A stretch of 38,183 nucleotides of DNA. Source: a virus. Lineage: Duplodnaviria; Heunggongvirae; Uroviricota; Caudoviricetes. Where the stretch lies: IMG/VR virus record IMGVR_UViG_2713896906_000008; one strand, given 5' to 3'. This document shows positions 1-9,589 of the stretch, one piece after another. The position numbers were made by a program, and so were the translations under genes. Under the pieces are notes generated by a model. It made no database searches. It had not been told where the DNA came from and was given only the letters and a program-made list of their open reading frames with translations. How positions within the stretch are numbered: position 1 is the first letter of the stretch; every line of letters begins with the position of its first letter.

Positions 1-1053
1 TTACGGGGTAATGCCAACCGCTGCCGCCACTTTGTCGCCACTTGGCAGCGTTGCCAGAGGATTGAAACGGAGCGCCGTTTCCAGATGATCCGGTGCCAGA
101 TGTGCGTAACGCATCGTCATTTTTATATCGTGATGTCCGAGGATTTTTTGCAAAGCAAGGATATTTCCACCCGACATCATGAAATGCGCCGCAAACGTAT
201 GGCGCAGAACGTGTGTCAGTTGACCGCGAGGGAGCACGATAGACGTTTTTTCCATCACGGATAAAAATTGAAAATAGCAGTCTGTGAAGAAATTGAAACC
301 ATCAAGCGCCATGATCTCTTCGTAAAGCTCTTTACTGATAGGGATGCTTCTGTTTTTCTTCCCCTTCGTTCTTACAAAGGTAATTCGGTATTTAGTCACC
401 TGTGAACGGGTAAGATTTATTGCTTCTCGCCAGCGTGCGCCTGTGCTTAAGCATATCTTGACTACCAGTGCCAGAATTGGGTCCTGACGTTTGCAATCAG
501 CCAGCAATTCAACAATCTGCTCATGGGTAAGCCATGCCATCTCTTTTTCTGCGATGGTGAATTTTCGCATGTTCTCCAGTGGGTTCGGATACGACCATTC
601 GCCCAGACGGGATAGTTCGCTAAAAACACTACTTAGATAGCTTTGCTCCAGGTTAATGGTGACCGGGCTTGCTCCTTTCTTCCATTTCTCGCTGAAGTAG
701 ATCTCGCCTGTCAGTCGTTTATCTCGATAGTGGGCAAACATTTTAGAGGTGAGATCGGTTGCAAGAGGATTGCCCAGAGCGTCAACCATCAACAGCAATT
801 TGTCATAGACATGCTGCCCAGCTGTCAGAGATTTACCATGTAGTTTGAACCATAGCTCAACCACGTCTTTCAGTGTTCGACGATCCACTGATTCACCCAG
901 CCAGGGCTTTGCTTCGGTTTCTTCCATCGTGTGACGCTCAAAAGCCAGTGCTTCGCCTTTGGTGGCGAATTGTTTACGCACACGACGCCCACTTCGTCCG
1001 GCGGGGTAACATTCGCAAAGCCATTTCCCTGTGGTGAGTTTTCGTACTGCCAT
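1..1053 (-). CDS. int: P2/186-family tyrosine integrase
   Basis: 350-aa ORF; C-terminal HVLRHTFAAHF...GHHDIKMTMRYAHL fits the tyrosine recombinase R-H-R-Y catalytic region; leftmost prophage gene as in P2/186. Window begins at its stop codon. Confidence 0.92.
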   Translation of the reverse strand: MAVRKLTTGKWLCECYPAGRSGRRVRKQFATKGEALAFERHTMEETEAKPWLGESVDRRTLKDVVELWFKLHGKSLTAGQHVYDKLLLMVDALGNPLATDLTSKMFAHYRDKRLTGEIYFSEKWKKGASPVTINLEQSYLSSVFSELSRLGEWSYPNPLENMRKFTIAEKEMAWLTHEQIVELLADCKRQDPILALVVKICLSTGARWREAINLTRSQVTKYRITFVRTKGKKNRSIPISKELYEEIMALDGFNFFTDCYFQFLSVMEKTSIVLPRGQLTHVLRHTFAAHFMMSGGNILALQKILGHHDIKMTMRYAHLAPDHLETALRFNPLATLPSGDKVAAAVGITP

Positions 1054-1077
1054 AAAAAAGCCCTCATGTCAGAGGGC
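1054..1077 (-). terminator. hairpin (gccctc/gagggc) followed by T6 on the minus strand, ending the cargo operon immediately upstream of the int start codon
   Basis: Inverted repeat 1060-1065/1072-1077 with A-run 1054-1059 on the plus strand (T-run on minus). Confidence 0.4.
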
Positions 1078-1133
1078 TAAATTTAACTGTATGTTTGACC
1101 AGTGGTCAATGTATGGTTTGTGAAATCCATACA

Positions 1134-1664
1134 TTACCTTAATTTATCAAGCTCTCGTTTATTTCTTTTATCATGTATATCATTAAGAAATAATATATTA
1201 CTAGCAATGATACTAAATAACGCTATTATTTGTAGATATACTAATAACGCTGTGATAAAAAATCCAAACTTGCAGAACACGTGCTTATGCAAGGAAATGA
1301 AATCCAGATTTGAAAATATAGGTTTCGTTAAATTTATTATAACAATAGAAAATATTACAATAGCTGAAATTATAATGGTTTTCACTATCAGAGTAATTCG
1401 CTCAATATCTTTTTCTGTTTCCTTATGATAGTTTATACTAGTTATTGTTGATGGCTTTACAATTGAACTTACAGCTGCAGGGTAAATATATGCAAGCCAA
1501 ATACCTGCAATAGTGAAGATCATTGCAGAAATGTTTTGCAAGGTAGATAAAATATCTTTTATATCTGCATACGTATATTTATCTCCGAACAAATAAGCAA
1601 TAGCTATAATTGTTAGGAGAAAACATATGTGCAAAATTTTAGGTTTTATAATCATACTATGCAC
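1134..1664 (-). CDS. small inner-membrane protein with four predicted TM helices (cargo; RexB-like topology and position)
   Basis: 176-aa ORF with four hydrophobic segments; AT-rich; start overlaps stop of upstream 400-aa ORF (first ATG at 1655 lies 1 nt after the upstream TAG; track start 1664 is GTG). Confidence 0.6.
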   Translation of the reverse strand: MHSMIIKPKILHICFLLTIIAIAYLFGDKYTYADIKDILSTLQNISAMIFTIAGIWLAYIYPAAVSSIVKPSTITSINYHKETEKDIERITLIVKTIIISAIVIFSIVIINLTKPIFSNLDFISLHKHVFCKFGFFITALLVYLQIIALFSIIASNILFLNDIHDKRNKRELDKLR

Positions 1665-2859
1665 CTATTTTATGAATCTGCACTGTTGTATCATTATCAG
1701 CTTCTGGTTGTTCTATTATATCTTCATTTTTAAAACAATTCACCAAATCATTTCTATGAGCTTTTACTACACTCATTAAATATGAAGAAGAGTAATGTTT
1801 GTTTCTGTTAGAAAGGTCAACGTGAATTTCATGGCGATAAACATATTCATCTAACCAAGTAGTTGAACCATTTTTCCCATTTATTTTGAATCCGATGCGT
1901 GCGTGATCATTCCCTACATTCTCATTGTTGTTTTCTGTATCTTCTGAAATAGGATTGTGGTTTTCTATATATTCATCGATGAGTTTAGTGAACTCTTCAG
2001 GCGTAGGCGTTCCTTCGACTAATAATTCAACGCGATGTTTTTTTGATAAAATAGGAGAGCTTCTTGAGAAAACATCTCCAACTGCATCAAATAACTTCTG
2101 CCATTTTTCCCGTGTATCAGGTATGTTTGTTTCTATTACGTCATGGTAAACAATGTGAGTGATTTTTTTACACAGTTCTTCTATGTTTGCTCCACTCGTG
2201 ATCATCCTTGTTTGTTTAGTCTGTACTTTAAAAACTAAACTTTCATCATCACCTTGAGAAAAAAGAACACGTTTGTAATGAACGTCTTCAGGTGAGTCAT
2301 TACGAGGACGAGTCATATCTATGACTTTTTTATTAGGATGCTCCATCCTAAAGTCAACGTATGCTTTAATATAATGACAGAAAAGATCTGTATCCGTATT
2401 AGAACTTGGGAATCGTATGGATGCAATTTTGTTATATTCTGGAATTACCCAATAGTAGCAAGGTACGCCCCAGATATATTTACCGCCACCTTGAGTATCA
2501 GAGGCGGATACAACATTATCTGAAGTGCCGTCAATCTTACTTTCAGCATCTATACCTTGAATATTTCCAGAGTTATCACCGAGCGTTTTCCAGATAACAA
2601 ATAGATAATCTCCTGTCGTACTGTCATATGAAATATTTTTACAGTATGCTTTTGTTCTTCTATTATTATCCTTTCCCCATGGAACAGATTGTTCAACTGT
2701 TCTTGAACAGATCCAGCTATGTAAGTTACACAGAACATGGGATAAGTTCTTTTCGACTAATTCCGGCGATTTGCCTTGTCGTATTTTATAAAGGCCAAAC
2801 ATTTCTAAATCAAAAAATGTTATAATGCCGCGTTCAGTTTTAAAGTTGGTTTTACTCAT
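1657..2859 (-). CDS. hypothetical 400-aa soluble protein (cargo, co-oriented with cI)
   Basis: Long uninterrupted ORF in AT-rich island between cI and int; no motif recognised. Confidence 0.65.
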   Translation of the reverse strand: MSKTNFKTERGIITFFDLEMFGLYKIRQGKSPELVEKNLSHVLCNLHSWICSRTVEQSVPWGKDNNRRTKAYCKNISYDSTTGDYLFVIWKTLGDNSGNIQGIDAESKIDGTSDNVVSASDTQGGGKYIWGVPCYYWVIPEYNKIASIRFPSSNTDTDLFCHYIKAYVDFRMEHPNKKVIDMTRPRNDSPEDVHYKRVLFSQGDDESLVFKVQTKQTRMITSGANIEELCKKITHIVYHDVIETNIPDTREKWQKLFDAVGDVFSRSSPILSKKHRVELLVEGTPTPEEFTKLIDEYIENHNPISEDTENNNENVGNDHARIGFKINGKNGSTTWLDEYVYRHEIHVDLSNRNKHYSSSYLMSVVKAHRNDLVNCFKNEDIIEQPEADNDTTVQIHKIGA

Positions 2860-2939
2860 TGTTATTGCTTCTCTTCACCTTTTAAATCTTTCGCTTAATA
2901 TAATCACTTCTATTAGAATGACATTTGTTGAATGTCACT

Positions 2940-3821
2940 TTAATTCGAAATGATTGTGCTTCTTATGCATGCAACTACCTCGATATCAGAAAATGCACAT
3001 TCAAAGTAAGTTTCTTTACTTCTGATATTTATCATACCTTTAGGTAGCCTAGTAATTTGTCTGACGGAATAGGTTCCATCAATATTAATTAACCAGTATC
3101 CATCTAATACATCAGAAAATTTCTGATCACAGATGTATGCCACTAAACCATCCTGAACGACAATTGGTGCTGAAAGATTAGCGGGTAAAAATGACGAATC
3201 GAAAATATATGAGCCACTCTCAACCATTTTGCCTGCATTGAGATGAAATTTAGGCAGTTCTTTTACCGATGTTGTGAGAGCATTGTGCTCGCTGCCTTGT
3301 CCAGTGGCTAGCCATAAAAGAGAATTTCCTGTTTCCAACGAACATTTTATGATCCAATCAGCCGGGAATGTGTCTCGCAAATATCTATTTGCCATAGTGC
3401 TTTTAGATACATTCAGATGGTCGGCAAGTTCTTGTCTTGTTTTAAAGCCATACGCTTTCATTAGCCTGTCTATTGCATCACGTCCGCCTGAGTCCAAATT
3501 CAGATCGTTCCCAATTGGGGACTTCAGGGTGGTGGCTTGGGAAACGTGCTGAACCTTTGATGCAGTTGCCTTTGGCATGACCGGAGCCTCAGTACTCTGA
3601 GGGAATGGTACGCCTTTTCCGAATGAGAGCCACTCGATAGATGCACCCGTTTCAATTGCACACTGAATTACCCAGTCAGCAGGAAATACGTCACGCATCC
3701 AGCGCGTGCCCATAGTGCTTGCAGATACGTTGAACTGTTCGCACAGAGCTTGCCTTGTCTTGAATCCATACGCTTCAAGCATGCGCGTTATGACTGCTTG
3801 TCCTCCGTTTTTGAAATTCAT
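2940..3821 (-). CDS. cI: CI-type immunity repressor with tandemly duplicated N-terminal DNA-binding domain
   Basis: Two paralogous segments (LEAYGFKTRQALCEQFNVSASTMGTRWMRDVFPADWVIQCAIETGASIEWL and MKAYGFKTRQELADHLNVSKSTMANRYLRDTFPADWIIKCSLETGNSLLWL) resembling the 186 CI N-terminal domain, plus a C-terminal domain; divergent from apl/cII. Confidence 0.8.
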   Translation of the reverse strand: MNFKNGGQAVITRMLEAYGFKTRQALCEQFNVSASTMGTRWMRDVFPADWVIQCAIETGASIEWLSFGKGVPFPQSTEAPVMPKATASKVQHVSQATTLKSPIGNDLNLDSGGRDAIDRLMKAYGFKTRQELADHLNVSKSTMANRYLRDTFPADWIIKCSLETGNSLLWLATGQGSEHNALTTSVKELPKFHLNAGKMVESGSYIFDSSFLPANLSAPIVVQDGLVAYICDQKFSDVLDGYWLINIDGTYSVRQITRLPKGMINIRSKETYFECAFSDIEVVACIRSTIISN

Positions 3822-9266: not shown

Positions 9267-9359
9267 TCACGTGGGTTAACAATTCGTGCTCTTAATAATA
9301 CCAGGCATATCAGGCTGATGAACGTAAAAAACGTTTTACATCAGTAAGATTATTATATA

Positions 9360-9375
9360 CTGTAAATATAAACAG
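9360..9375. promoter_or_regulatory. LexA (SOS) box CTGTaaatataaACAG
   Basis: Near-consensus CTGT-N8-ACAG; preceded by TTTACA (-35-like) and followed by a strong SD and small ORF. Confidence 0.75.
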
Positions 9376-9418
9376 TGGTTGTGCATACAGTATTGCTTGT
9401 GGTGTCATAGGAGGAAAG

Positions 9419-9589
9419 ATGCAGGACTATTTTTTGGAGTCTTTGAAGCTCCAGCGCATTGATTTTTTTCTTAAGCTTGTAGCGGCTAGTGAGTGTAGTG
9501 ATGAAGAGAAGGGGCTGGCTCTGCAGTGGGTTTCTGAGTTGACTGATGAGCTGATGGCGAGAATTCGCGCTCATGAATACAACCACTAG
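9419..9589 (+). CDS. small SOS-controlled protein (56 aa), candidate antirepressor (Tum-like position)
   Basis: ATG preceded by GGAGGA 7 nt upstream, about 45 nt downstream of the LexA box; not in the ORF track because shorter than 60 aa. Confidence 0.5.
   Translation: MQDYFLESLKLQRIDFFLKLVAASECSDEEKGLALQWVSELTDELMARIRAHEYNH

What the first reader, a model, noticed from the sequence alone, without database searches (positions are those of the whole stretch)
1134..2859. Rex-like two-gene cargo (400-aa soluble protein + 4-TM membrane protein) co-transcribed downstream of the cI repressor
Between cI and int, on the same strand as both, lies an AT-rich insert of two overlapping genes: a 400-aa soluble protein and a 176-aa four-helix membrane protein. 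This mirrors the lambda cI-rexA-rexB arrangement (soluble sensor plus 4-TM effector expressed from the repressor transcript), suggesting a lysogen-expressed exclusion module. Neither protein shows motifs I recognise.
Basis: partly seen in the sequence, partly recalled or inferred. Interest (0 to 1): 0.65.

Follow-up and report, generated by a model that had tools for sequence, protein, structure and literature searches.

The report
Rex-like two-gene prophage defence candidate
Between the repressor and integrase genes of a 186/P2-like E. coli prophage sits a conserved gene pair, a soluble protein with the fold of phage lambda RexA plus a four-helix membrane protein. It is already catalogued as the untested defence candidate PDC-M18 and most likely works as a Rex-type abortive-infection system.

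Summary
On the minus strand, between cI (2940-3821) and int (1-1053), lies an AT-rich stretch (28-38% GC against 45-55% in the flanks). It holds a 400-aa soluble protein (A, 1657-2859) and a 173/176-aa protein with four hydrophobic helices (B, 1134-1655/1664).

Both proteins match the two components of the PADLOC candidate system PDC-M18 (E 2e-36 and 5e-24). They are homologues (28% and 37% identity) of the P4-satellite hotspot system 4 of Rousset et al. 2022, "RexA + 4TM". That system was cloned and gave no protection against eight phages.

The A-B pair is kept in 49 of 50 related loci across several phyla. About a quarter of distinct contexts place it directly downstream of a prophage repressor.

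Most likely it is a lysogen-expressed Rex-type abortive-infection module in which A senses and B is the membrane effector. Function, transcription and trigger are untested. It is a new member of a known kind, of moderate interest.

The parts
1657..2859 (-). Gene A: 400-aa soluble protein, PDC-M18A family with a RexA/RdgC-like fold. Putative sensor and DNA-binding component.
1134..1655 (-). Gene B: 173-aa protein from ATG 1655 (176 aa if GTG 1664 is used) with four transmembrane helices, PDC-M18B family. Putative membrane effector.
   Evidence: ORF. AGGTG Shine-Dalgarno 7 nt before ATG 1655, and RefSeq uses this start. PADLOC PDC-M18B E 5.1e-24. PHROG 37654. Four hydrophobic segments and four helices in the AF2 model. 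37% identity, E 7e-34, to pFR81 protein 2. A homologue lies directly downstream of A in 49 of 50 loci.
2860..2939 (-). 80-nt spacer between cI and A. It holds a weak sigma-70-like site (ATGTCA-16-TATATT, 2924-2897) and the ribosome-binding region of A. No terminator-like site lies on this strand.
   Evidence: In the 63%-identical clade the same spacer is only 22-24 nt (L005, L031), which leaves no room for a separate promoter plus terminator.
2940..3821 (-). cI immunity repressor, 186 type, 293 aa with a duplicated N-terminal HTH domain. It is the upstream gene of the presumed lysogenic transcript.
   Evidence: Pfam Phage_CI_repr (two stretches, E 4.6e-59) plus Phage_CI_C (E 1.2e-25). Annotated as phage repressor protein CI in RefSeq.
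1054..1133 (-). Conserved int-proximal segment that bounds the cargo slot. It contains the palindrome TTGACCACTGGTCAA (1095-1109) and a GC-rich hairpin followed by a T run (1078-1059) whose 3' arm (GAGGG) is the likely Shine-Dalgarno of int.
   Evidence: Terminator-like site. Folding energy -15.7 kcal/mol, z -2.3. Near-identical in four prophages that carry four different cargos, with conservation starting right after the cargo stop codon.
1..1053 (-). Tyrosine integrase of the 186/P2-like prophage, the downstream boundary of the slot.
   Evidence: Pfam Int_N plus Phage_integrase. PHROG 1. RefSeq annotates it as phage integrase, next to rcdA at the attachment site.

Best explanation
The two genes form a Rex-type, prophage-encoded abortive-infection (exclusion) module of the PDC-M18 family. 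It sits in the swappable cassette slot between cI and int of a 186-like prophage.

Proposed mechanism:
- In the lysogen the pair is transcribed with cI from the lysogenic promoter. A weak promoter of its own is also possible.
- A is a soluble protein with the RexA/RdgC fold. It probably forms a dimer that binds DNA non-specifically, and it acts as the sensor of an infecting phage, responding to a phage protein or to replication or recombination intermediates.
- Activated A engages B, an inner-membrane protein with four helices and both ends in the cytoplasm. B oligomerises into a channel or otherwise damages the membrane.
- The cell is depolarised, ATP is lost and growth stops, which aborts the superinfecting phage's cycle and protects the clonal lysogen population.

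Shown here: the gene anatomy, family membership (PDC-M18), the fold similarity of A to RexA, the topology of B, the strict A-B linkage, the recurrent placement behind repressors and the cassette nature of the slot.

Inferred: co-transcription with cI, DNA binding and dimerisation of A, the A-B interaction, channel activity of B, and any protection phenotype.
For: - Both proteins match both components of PADLOC candidate PDC-M18, E 2e-36 and 5e-24.
- They are homologous to P4-hotspot system 4, 'RexA + 4TM' (169 loci), at E 2.6e-49 and 7e-34. That system is itself PDC-M18.
- B has four transmembrane segments and a basic C-terminal tail.
- A-B are adjacent in 49 of 50 loci, from Enterobacterales to Planctomycetota and Gordonia, with gaps of -50 to +38 nt.
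- The gene directly upstream on the same strand is a repressor-type HTH protein in 6 of 27 distinct contexts. Two unrelated families are involved: Phage_CI_repr in 4 and HTH_3 in 2, one of these with Peptidase_S24. Spacers are as short as 22-24 nt.
- The slot holds other defence-like cargo in sister prophages: a KAP NTPase, a 558-aa ATPase and a 325-aa hypothetical protein.
- The int-primase interval is a reported minor P2 defence hotspot (PMC13586616).
- The layout matches lambda cI-rexA-rexB.
Against: - No sequence-level link to RexA or RexB was found. The PADLOC RexA and RexB HMMs hit the lambda proteins at 9e-110 and 9e-61, yet a scan of A and B at E up to 1 returned only PDC-M18 models.
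- Pfam RexA does not hit A, pFR81A or any of 79 family members.
- hhalign probabilities are below 1%, and for B against RexB they are no better than a reversed control.
- The cloned P4 homologue (pFR81) is listed among tested systems without detected activity on an 8-phage panel.
- A terminator-like hairpin follows B, and a promoter-like site precedes A, so the transcription pattern is not settled.
- A is 120 residues longer than RexA.
Confidence: 0.6

Rival explanations
1. A mainly modulates the prophage's own lysis-lysogeny switch, as lambda RexA does independently of RexB by binding DNA and CI to stabilise the lytic state. B tunes or sequesters A. Exclusion of other phages would be secondary or absent. 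This reading does not exclude the best explanation.
For: A has the RexA fold. It sits next to cI here and next to repressors of two families elsewhere. The switch-modulating role of RexA is published (PMC11077077). The tested P4 homologue showed no defence phenotype.
Against: The same A-B pair occurs in the P4 psu-int hotspot, behind P2 gpA, and next to resolvases, transposases and unrelated chromosomal genes, where no cognate repressor is adjacent. Repressor partners belong to unrelated families, which argues against a specific A-CI interaction. B is strictly co-conserved with A.
Confidence: 0.12
2. It is a superinfection-exclusion system acting at the envelope. B, in the inner membrane, blocks DNA injection or another early step of incoming phages in the manner of SieA/SieB or Imm, and A is a cytoplasmic regulator or chaperone. 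No cell suicide is involved.
For: It is a small polytopic inner-membrane protein encoded in a lysogen-expressed region next to the repressor. Lambda itself encodes SieB near this region.
Against: No similarity to known Sie or Imm families in PADLOC, PHROGs or Pfam. The strictly conserved 340-400-aa RexA-fold partner is not expected for injection blockers. Validated RexAB-type systems with this architecture act through membrane damage and growth arrest (PMC12894663).
Confidence: 0.07
3. It is a toxin-antitoxin-like addiction module that stabilises the prophage or satellite. B is a membrane toxin and A its antidote, or the reverse as in mycobacteriophage Butters gp30/gp31. There would be no dedicated anti-phage role.
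For: It is a tightly coupled two-gene operon with a membrane protein, carried on mobile elements. The roles of Rex-like components are known to be reversed in Butters (PMC12894663).
Against: Rousset et al. 2022 report no toxicity for their homologous clone. In RexABpp, deleting either gene abolished defence. The slot and the P4 and P2 hotspots are dominated by defence systems.
Confidence: 0.05
4. It is cargo without current function in E. coli: a horizontally acquired AT-rich cassette that is silent (for example H-NS-repressed) or decaying.
For: Very low GC. It is found in only 12 of 5,426 complete E. coli genomes. The tested homologue was negative. One truncated A without B was seen (L016).
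Against: Both ORFs are intact and 99.6-99.9% identical in 12 genomes. Length, motifs and synteny are conserved down to about 25% identity across phyla. Coupled start and stop signals are preserved.
Confidence: 0.06

Closest known systems
PADLOC phage-defence candidate PDC-M18 (A+B), which is P4-hotspot system 4 'RexA + 4TM' of Rousset et al. 2022 (plasmid pFR81, E. coli IAI75)
   Same: Both window proteins hit the PDC-M18A and PDC-M18B HMMs over their full length. The pFR81 proteins hit the same models and align with the window proteins at 28% and 37% identity. The order is the same, with A upstream of a four-helix B. Both are cargo of the P2/P4 phage-satellite world.
   Different: It is a divergent subclade: 400 aa against 361 aa, with an acidic insertion and C-terminal tail. 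It is carried in the cI-int slot of a 186-like helper-type prophage, not in the psu-int hotspot of P4. The family is a candidate only, and pFR81 showed no activity against the 8-phage panel.
Phage lambda RexA/RexB exclusion system (Pfam PF15969; PADLOC RexA and RexB; PDB 8TWQ)
   Different: No significant sequence similarity by BLASTP, HMM or profile-profile search. A is 400 aa against 279 aa and B is 173 aa against 144 aa. Foldseek does not recover the match. Homology of B to RexB is unsupported, being no better than a reversed control.
Pseudomonas putida prophage P1 RexABpp (PP_5643/PP_5644), an experimentally validated RexAB-type system (PMC12894663)
   Different: PP_5643 is smaller, about 37.5 kDa with its tag. 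HHpred links it to RexA at 98% probability, which I could not obtain for the PDC-M18 family. Two extra genes separate it from the repressor. Its sequence could not be retrieved, so direct homology to A and B is untested.
Actinophage Rex-like pairs: Sbash gp30/gp31, CarolAnn gp44/gp43 and Butters gp30/gp31
   Same: Prophage-expressed two-component exclusion with a cytosolic RexA-like protein and a membrane RexB-like protein. The RexA homologues dimerise and bind DNA (PMC11077077; PMC12894663).
   Different: Different hosts, and no sequence comparison was done here. In Butters the roles are reversed, with the soluble protein as effector.
Defence-cassette hotspots of P2-like phages and P4 satellites (Rousset 2022; PMC13586616)
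   Same: An AT-rich swappable cassette with conserved flanks. Alternative cargos occupy the same slot in sister prophages. The integrase-primase interval is reported to hold 8% of P2 defence systems.
   Different: This is not the major gpA-gpQ hotspot. That hotspot is separately occupied in this window by PDC-M03. The slot is inside the lysogenic cI-int operon, which ties its expression to immunity.

Membership tests
PADLOC PDC-M18 (candidate defence system) | Protein A matches a PDC-M18A profile over its full length | tested here: met
   PDLC04494 E 2.1e-36, residues 13-374 on profile positions 7-336 of 339. Five further PDC-M18A profiles also hit.
PADLOC PDC-M18 (candidate defence system) | Protein B matches a PDC-M18B profile | tested here: met
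   PDLC04500 E 5.1e-24, residues 4-172 on profile positions 1-161 of 174.
PADLOC PDC-M18 (candidate defence system) | A and B are adjacent on the same strand, with A first | tested here: met
   A at 1657-2859 and B at 1134-1655/1664, both on the minus strand. The same arrangement is found in 49 of 50 related loci.
PADLOC PDC-M18 (candidate defence system) | Demonstrated anti-phage activity | not testable with these tools
   No paper in the library reports activity. Only one paper mentions PDC-M18. The P4 homologue pFR81 is listed without detected activity.
Canonical lambda RexAB (Pfam PF15969 RexA; PADLOC RexA and RexB) | The soluble protein matches the RexA sequence profile | tested here: not met
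   No PF15969 hit for A at E up to 1, for 79 family members at E up to 0.1, or for pFR81A at E up to 10. The PADLOC RexA HMM hits lambda RexA at 9e-110 but not A. hhalign probability is 0.2-0.7%.
Canonical lambda RexAB (Pfam PF15969 RexA; PADLOC RexA and RexB) | The membrane protein matches the RexB sequence profile | tested here: not met
   The PADLOC RexB HMM hits lambda RexB at 8.6e-61 but not B. hhalign of the B family against the RexB family gives E 0.22, worse than the reversed control at 0.014.
Canonical lambda RexAB (Pfam PF15969 RexA; PADLOC RexA and RexB) | RexA/RdgC two-domain fold of the soluble protein | tested here: inconclusive
Canonical lambda RexAB (Pfam PF15969 RexA; PADLOC RexA and RexB) | Partner is an inner-membrane protein with four transmembrane helices, encoded directly downstream | tested here: met
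   Four hydrophobic segments and four helices. Start of B is 1 nt after, or 8 nt overlapping, the stop of A.
Canonical lambda RexAB (Pfam PF15969 RexA; PADLOC RexA and RexB) | Located directly downstream of the immunity repressor on the same strand and transcribed from the maintenance promoter | tested here: inconclusive
   Position and strand are met, with an 80-nt spacer and no terminator-like site between cI and A. Transcription itself cannot be tested. A weak promoter-like site lies at 2924-2897.
Canonical lambda RexAB (Pfam PF15969 RexA; PADLOC RexA and RexB) | Exclusion of superinfecting phage (T4 rII) through membrane depolarisation | not testable with these tools
   This needs plaque assays and membrane-potential assays.
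RexAB-type systems in the broad sense (P. putida RexABpp, Sbash, CarolAnn) | Sequence or profile homology of A to a validated member such as PP_5643 | not tested
   The PP_5643 sequence could not be obtained. Scans of viral and metagenome contigs with the published primer found nothing. Terminal peptides deduced from the primers match none of the sampled family members.
RexAB-type systems in the broad sense (P. putida RexABpp, Sbash, CarolAnn) | A dimerises and binds DNA non-specifically; over-expression of A causes B-dependent growth arrest | not testable with these tools
   Experimental features, reported for RexApp and RexBpp in PMC12894663.
P2/P4 defence-cassette hotspot cargo | A variable cassette between conserved flanks, with alternative cargo in sister elements | tested here: met
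   The 80-nt int-proximal flank is conserved in four prophages that carry PDC-M18, a KAP NTPase, a 325-aa hypothetical protein or a 558-aa ATPase. The low-GC cassette is shown. The interval is reported as a minor P2 hotspot.

The most novel reading that the evidence does not exclude
PDC-M18 may be a large, ancient sister branch of the RexAB superfamily: 502 clusters at 50% identity (E up to 1e-3), found from Enterobacterales to Planctomycetota and Actinobacteria. If so, lambda Rex would be one small twig of a widespread two-component system in which a DNA-clamp sensor drives a four-helix channel. In 186-like prophages the module is wired into the cI-int lysogenic operon, so it might do double duty. 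It could abort superinfecting phages, possibly including P2/P4 competitors, and, like RexA, feed back on the prophage's own CI/Apl switch. That would give a tractable E. coli system for finding the long-sought trigger of Rex-type sensors.
Probability: 0.2. Interest if true: 0.6.

Novelty: new member of a known kind. Interest (0 to 1): 0.4.

Why it matters
RexAB was the first abortive-infection system described, and after 70 years its trigger and activation mechanism are still unknown. The window pair belongs to a much larger and more diverse family than the canonical RexAB Pfam family. That family is catalogued only as a candidate and has so far tested negative in one limited screen.

Three findings make a concrete case for retesting PDC-M18. 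Its soluble component shares the RexA/RdgC fold. The pair is strictly co-inherited. It has repeatedly been captured directly behind prophage repressors of unrelated families. Retesting should use native lysogenic expression, a broader phage panel and T4 rII. The family could then serve as comparative material for working out Rex mechanisms.

The finding also documents, with base-pair boundaries, a cassette slot inside the cI-int operon of 186-like prophages that exchanges defence-like cargo independently of the classic gpA-gpQ hotspot.

Tried and rejected
- Pfam and NCBIfam scans of A and B found nothing significant.
- HMM searches of the PDB sequences with the 14- and 79-sequence A profiles gave only noise: ribosomal protein L28, centrin and troponin C, E above 0.04.
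- A Pfam scan of 79 diverse A-family members, looking for a transitive RexA hit, found none.
- hhalign of A profiles against lambda RexA, a 22-sequence RexA alignment and a broader RexA alignment derived from IMG/VR gave probabilities below 1%. The same held for the B family against the RexB family, where a reversed-sequence control scored better. Cross HMM searches gave only E 0.01-1 on tiny databases.
- I tried to reproduce Rousset's Pfam "RexA" label for the P4 homologue. The current Pfam gives no hit even at E up to 10.
- Foldseek of the A model against the PDB found nothing significant. Against BFVD it found only three uncharacterised siphovirus proteins.
- AlphaFold of B could only be run as a single sequence and gave a low-confidence model (pLDDT 63), so no fold search was done on it.
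- A second word-indexed homology search with the alignment added only one sequence.
- I tried to retrieve P. putida PP_5643 and PP_5644 for a direct comparison. Scans of viral and metagenome contigs with the published primer found nothing. Peptide ends deduced from the primers matched no sampled family member.
- The search for related loci with the 79-sequence alignment failed because no stretch was conserved enough, so a 36-sequence alignment was used instead.
- I considered a HAD-hydrolase plus transmembrane-protein system, which Rousset validated against T7. I rejected it because the sequences are unrelated.
Full report
**1. What is in the sequence**

The window is a 186/P2-like prophage of Escherichia coli. 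It is essentially identical to IMG/VR contig UViG_2740892218_000010 and to prophages inserted next to rcdA in 12 complete E. coli genomes.

On the minus strand, the genes are, from higher to lower coordinates:
- a 186-type CI repressor (2940-3821, 293 aa; two Phage_CI_repr HTH domains plus Phage_CI_C);
- an 80-nt spacer;
- gene A (1657-2859, 400 aa);
- gene B (1134-1655 or 1134-1664, 173 or 176 aa);
- an 80-nt conserved segment;
- the integrase (1-1053).

Divergently from cI lie apl/cox, cII, fil, dam and the gpA replication gene.

GC content is 28-38% from about 1050 to 3000, against 45-55% on either side. A has no hydrophobic segment. B has four, and they appear as four long helices in a low-confidence model.

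The start of B is probably the ATG at 1655, which has an AGGTG 7 nt upstream and is the RefSeq start.

**2. What family it belongs to**

Pfam and NCBIfam recognise neither protein. PHROGs places them in two families of unknown function.

PADLOC places A in PDC-M18A (E 2.1e-36, full length) and B in PDC-M18B (E 5.1e-24). These are the two components of a phage-defence candidate.

The only paper in the library that mentions PDC-M18 equates it with cluster 4 of the P4-satellite hotspot, which is system 4 of Rousset et al. 2022. Rousset's supplementary tables list that system with these details:
- 169 occurrences;
[quoted passage not shown] They cloned one example, pFR81 "RexA + 4TM" from E. coli IAI75. 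It appears in Table S2B, "additional tested systems", not in Table S2A, the validated systems. No protection was therefore recorded against their eight phages.

The window proteins are true but divergent homologues of the pFR81 proteins: A at 28% identity (E 2.6e-49) and B at 37% identity (E 7e-34). The pFR81 proteins hit the same PADLOC models.

**3. Size and coherence of the family**

An exhaustive profile search of 1.84 billion representative proteins found 502 clusters at E up to 1e-3, and 298 at E up to 1e-10. Most proteins are 340-390 aa. The most conserved feature is a G-x-P-x-Y-Y-W-x-x-P motif, residues 131-140 in A.

I fetched 19 loci from species-representative genomes and 31 from viral contigs. 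In 49 of the 50, a B homologue (phmmer E 5e-11 to 5e-56) starts between 50 nt before and 38 nt after the stop of A. The single exception is a truncated A.

Hosts include Enterobacterales, Vibrionales, Alteromonadales, Oceanospirillales, Pseudomonas, Betaproteobacteria, a Planctomycetota MAG and Gordonia. A and B therefore form an obligate two-gene unit.

**4. Is it Rex-like?**

*Sequence level: no.*
- BLASTP finds nothing.
- The PADLOC RexA and RexB models hit the lambda proteins at 9e-110 and 9e-61, but a scan of A and B at E up to 1 returned only PDC-M18 models.
- Pfam RexA does not hit A, 79 diverse family members or pFR81A.
- Profile searches of PDB sequences do not find 8TWQ.
- hhalign against single-sequence and family RexA profiles gives probabilities below 1%.
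- B against RexB scores worse than a reversed-sequence control.
- The only hint is a recurrent, co-linear, non-significant pairing of the GxPxYYW motif region of the A family with the most conserved RexA segment, L88-G-F-P-S-F93.

*Fold level: probably yes.*
- The AlphaFold2 model of A has pLDDT 73 and pTM 0.67. The N-terminal 180 residues and the C-terminal helix are confident, and the middle is weaker.
- RdgC is exactly the structural relative reported for RexA, so the top two hits agree with each other.
- The order of secondary-structure elements in the model also fits the published RexA architecture of a split globular domain with an inserted dimerisation domain. It runs from a beta-rich N-terminal domain, through a central beta-sheet-plus-helices domain, to a return strand region and a long C-terminal helix.
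- Against this, Foldseek did not recover RexA. In BFVD it found only three unnamed siphovirus proteins of RexA-like size.

I therefore treat the RexA fold as likely but resting on one method. B resembles RexB only in being a small protein with four transmembrane helices.

**5. Genomic logic**

The layout reproduces lambda: cI-112 nt-rexA-15 nt-rexB, all on one strand.

Among 27 non-redundant upstream neighbours of family members, six are repressor-type HTH proteins on the same strand. Four are Phage_CI_repr (186 type) and two are HTH_3, one of these with Peptidase_S24 (lambda type). In the 63%-identical enterobacterial clade the cI-A spacer is only 22-24 nt, which effectively forces co-transcription.

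Other contexts include:
- the classic P2 gpA-side hotspot (L034);
- positions beside integrases, a resolvase and a transposase;
- the P4 hotspot.

The module is thus a mobile cassette that has repeatedly landed where lysogens express genes.

In the window itself no terminator-like site separates cI from A. A weak sigma-70-like site lies at 2924-2897. A GC-rich hairpin with a T run (1078-1059; -15.7 kcal/mol, z -2.3) follows B.

The 80 nt next to int, including this hairpin and a TTGACCACTGGTCAA palindrome, are nearly identical in four prophages. Between this segment and cI those prophages carry four different cargos: PDC-M18, a KAP P-loop NTPase, a 325-aa hypothetical protein and a 558-aa ATPase. 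Conservation begins right after the cargo's stop codon.

This defines a cassette slot inside the cI-int operon. A 2026 survey reports the integrase-primase interval as a minor P2 defence hotspot holding 8% of systems. That pL and pE transcribe cI and int together in phage 186 is my recollection of the Dodd and Egan literature. The papers I opened did not state it explicitly.

**6. Mechanism proposed**

I draw on the lambda literature and the P. putida RexABpp study, which found that:
- both genes are required for defence;
- RexApp binds DNA;
- over-expressed RexApp causes RexBpp-dependent membrane permeabilisation and growth arrest;
- suppressors map to rexB.

By analogy, the most likely mechanism is as follows. 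A and B are made in the lysogen. A is a DNA-binding dimer with the RexA/RdgC fold, and it senses an infecting phage. Activated A switches on oligomeric B in the inner membrane. Depolarisation or membrane damage then arrests the cell and aborts the infection.

Only the anatomy, the family assignment, the fold of A, the topology of B and the genomic associations are shown here. The rest is inference. I put about 0.6 on this explanation.

The rivals are a role in the prophage's own switch (not exclusive of the main explanation), envelope-level superinfection exclusion, an addiction module, and silent cargo. They are set out with their tests in the Rival explanations section.

**7. Novelty and verdict**

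However, the idea is not new. The family is already in PADLOC as a candidate. Its P4 representative was already flagged as a possible distant RexAB homologue and tested, with a negative result, in 2022. A RexAB-type system of the same architecture was validated in P. putida in 2026. The int-side interval of P2-like phages is already noted as a minor hotspot.

This analysis adds five things:
- the demonstration that canonical sequence models do not capture it;
- the strict A-B linkage across phyla;
- the recurrent capture behind unrelated repressors;
- base-pair definition of the cI-int cassette slot.

I rate it a new member of a known kind, with interest about 0.4. It is worth a properly designed retest, but it is not a surprise.

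Noticed in passing
window 10324-11936 (+), with neighbours at 9754-10308 (+) and 12834-13484 (-): The classic P2 gpA-gpQ hotspot of this prophage holds a second candidate defence pair, PADLOC PDC-M03. One gene is a HipA_C-like kinase (303 aa, PDC-M03A E 4e-36). It overlaps by 4 nt a HIRAN-domain protein (234 aa, PDC-M03B E 4e-36). An Rv2179c-like 3'-5' exonuclease precedes the pair, and a 216-aa ORF without any family match follows it.
   Followed up: partly
window 9300-13500 compared with NZ_CP023388.1 3344626-3347176 (L095): Strain 1105 carries an int-B-A-cI region 99.9% identical to the window. At the gpA-gpQ hotspot, however, it has a 561-aa 'ATP-dependent nuclease' plus a 111-aa hypothetical protein instead of PDC-M03. 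The two cargo slots of the prophage therefore assort independently.
   Followed up: partly
window 2940-3821 (-): The CI repressor is 293 aa and has two tandem Phage_CI_repr HTH domains (about residues 10-70 and 115-177) before the CI_C domain. Related 186-type CIs next to homologous cargo are 188-190 aa with one HTH (L005, L031), and another sister prophage has a 312-aa CI (L004). This is a duplicated-HTH immunity repressor variant.
   Followed up: no
window 1054-1133 (-), hairpin 1078-1059, palindrome 1095-1109: The segment next to int is conserved across prophages with different cargos. It contains a GC-rich hairpin plus T6 whose 3' arm (GAGGG) is the probable Shine-Dalgarno of int, 8 nt before the ATG. 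It could act both as terminator of the cI-cargo transcript and as a translational brake on Int. A 7+7-bp palindrome, TTGACCACTGGTCAA, overlaps a promoter-like site (TTGACC-18-TAAATT).
   Followed up: partly
L003 5082-6533; L004 4088-5065; L096 3937-5613; L097 3938-5614: Other cargos occupy the same cI-int slot in sister prophages. They are a 483-aa KAP-family P-loop NTPase, a 325-aa hypothetical protein, and a 558-aa protein annotated 'chromosome segregation ATPase' that is present in both an E. coli phage and a Klebsiella phage. None was analysed further.
   Followed up: no
window A residues 379-400 (DNA about 1657-1725); alignment A1 columns 420-439: The disordered C-terminal tail of A (pLDDT about 25) still keeps a conserved acidic 'A-D-N-D ... 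G-A' ending throughout the enterobacterial clade. More distant family members lack it. It could be a partner-binding or degradation tag.
   Followed up: no
BFVD entries A0A8S5S8L2, A0A8S5QGP5 and A0A8S5MSR5: Three uncharacterised gut siphovirus proteins of 277-314 aa are the only significant Foldseek matches of the A model among viral predicted structures (E 4e-9 to 8e-7). They have RexA-like size and may be further unrecognised Rex-type sensors.
   Followed up: no
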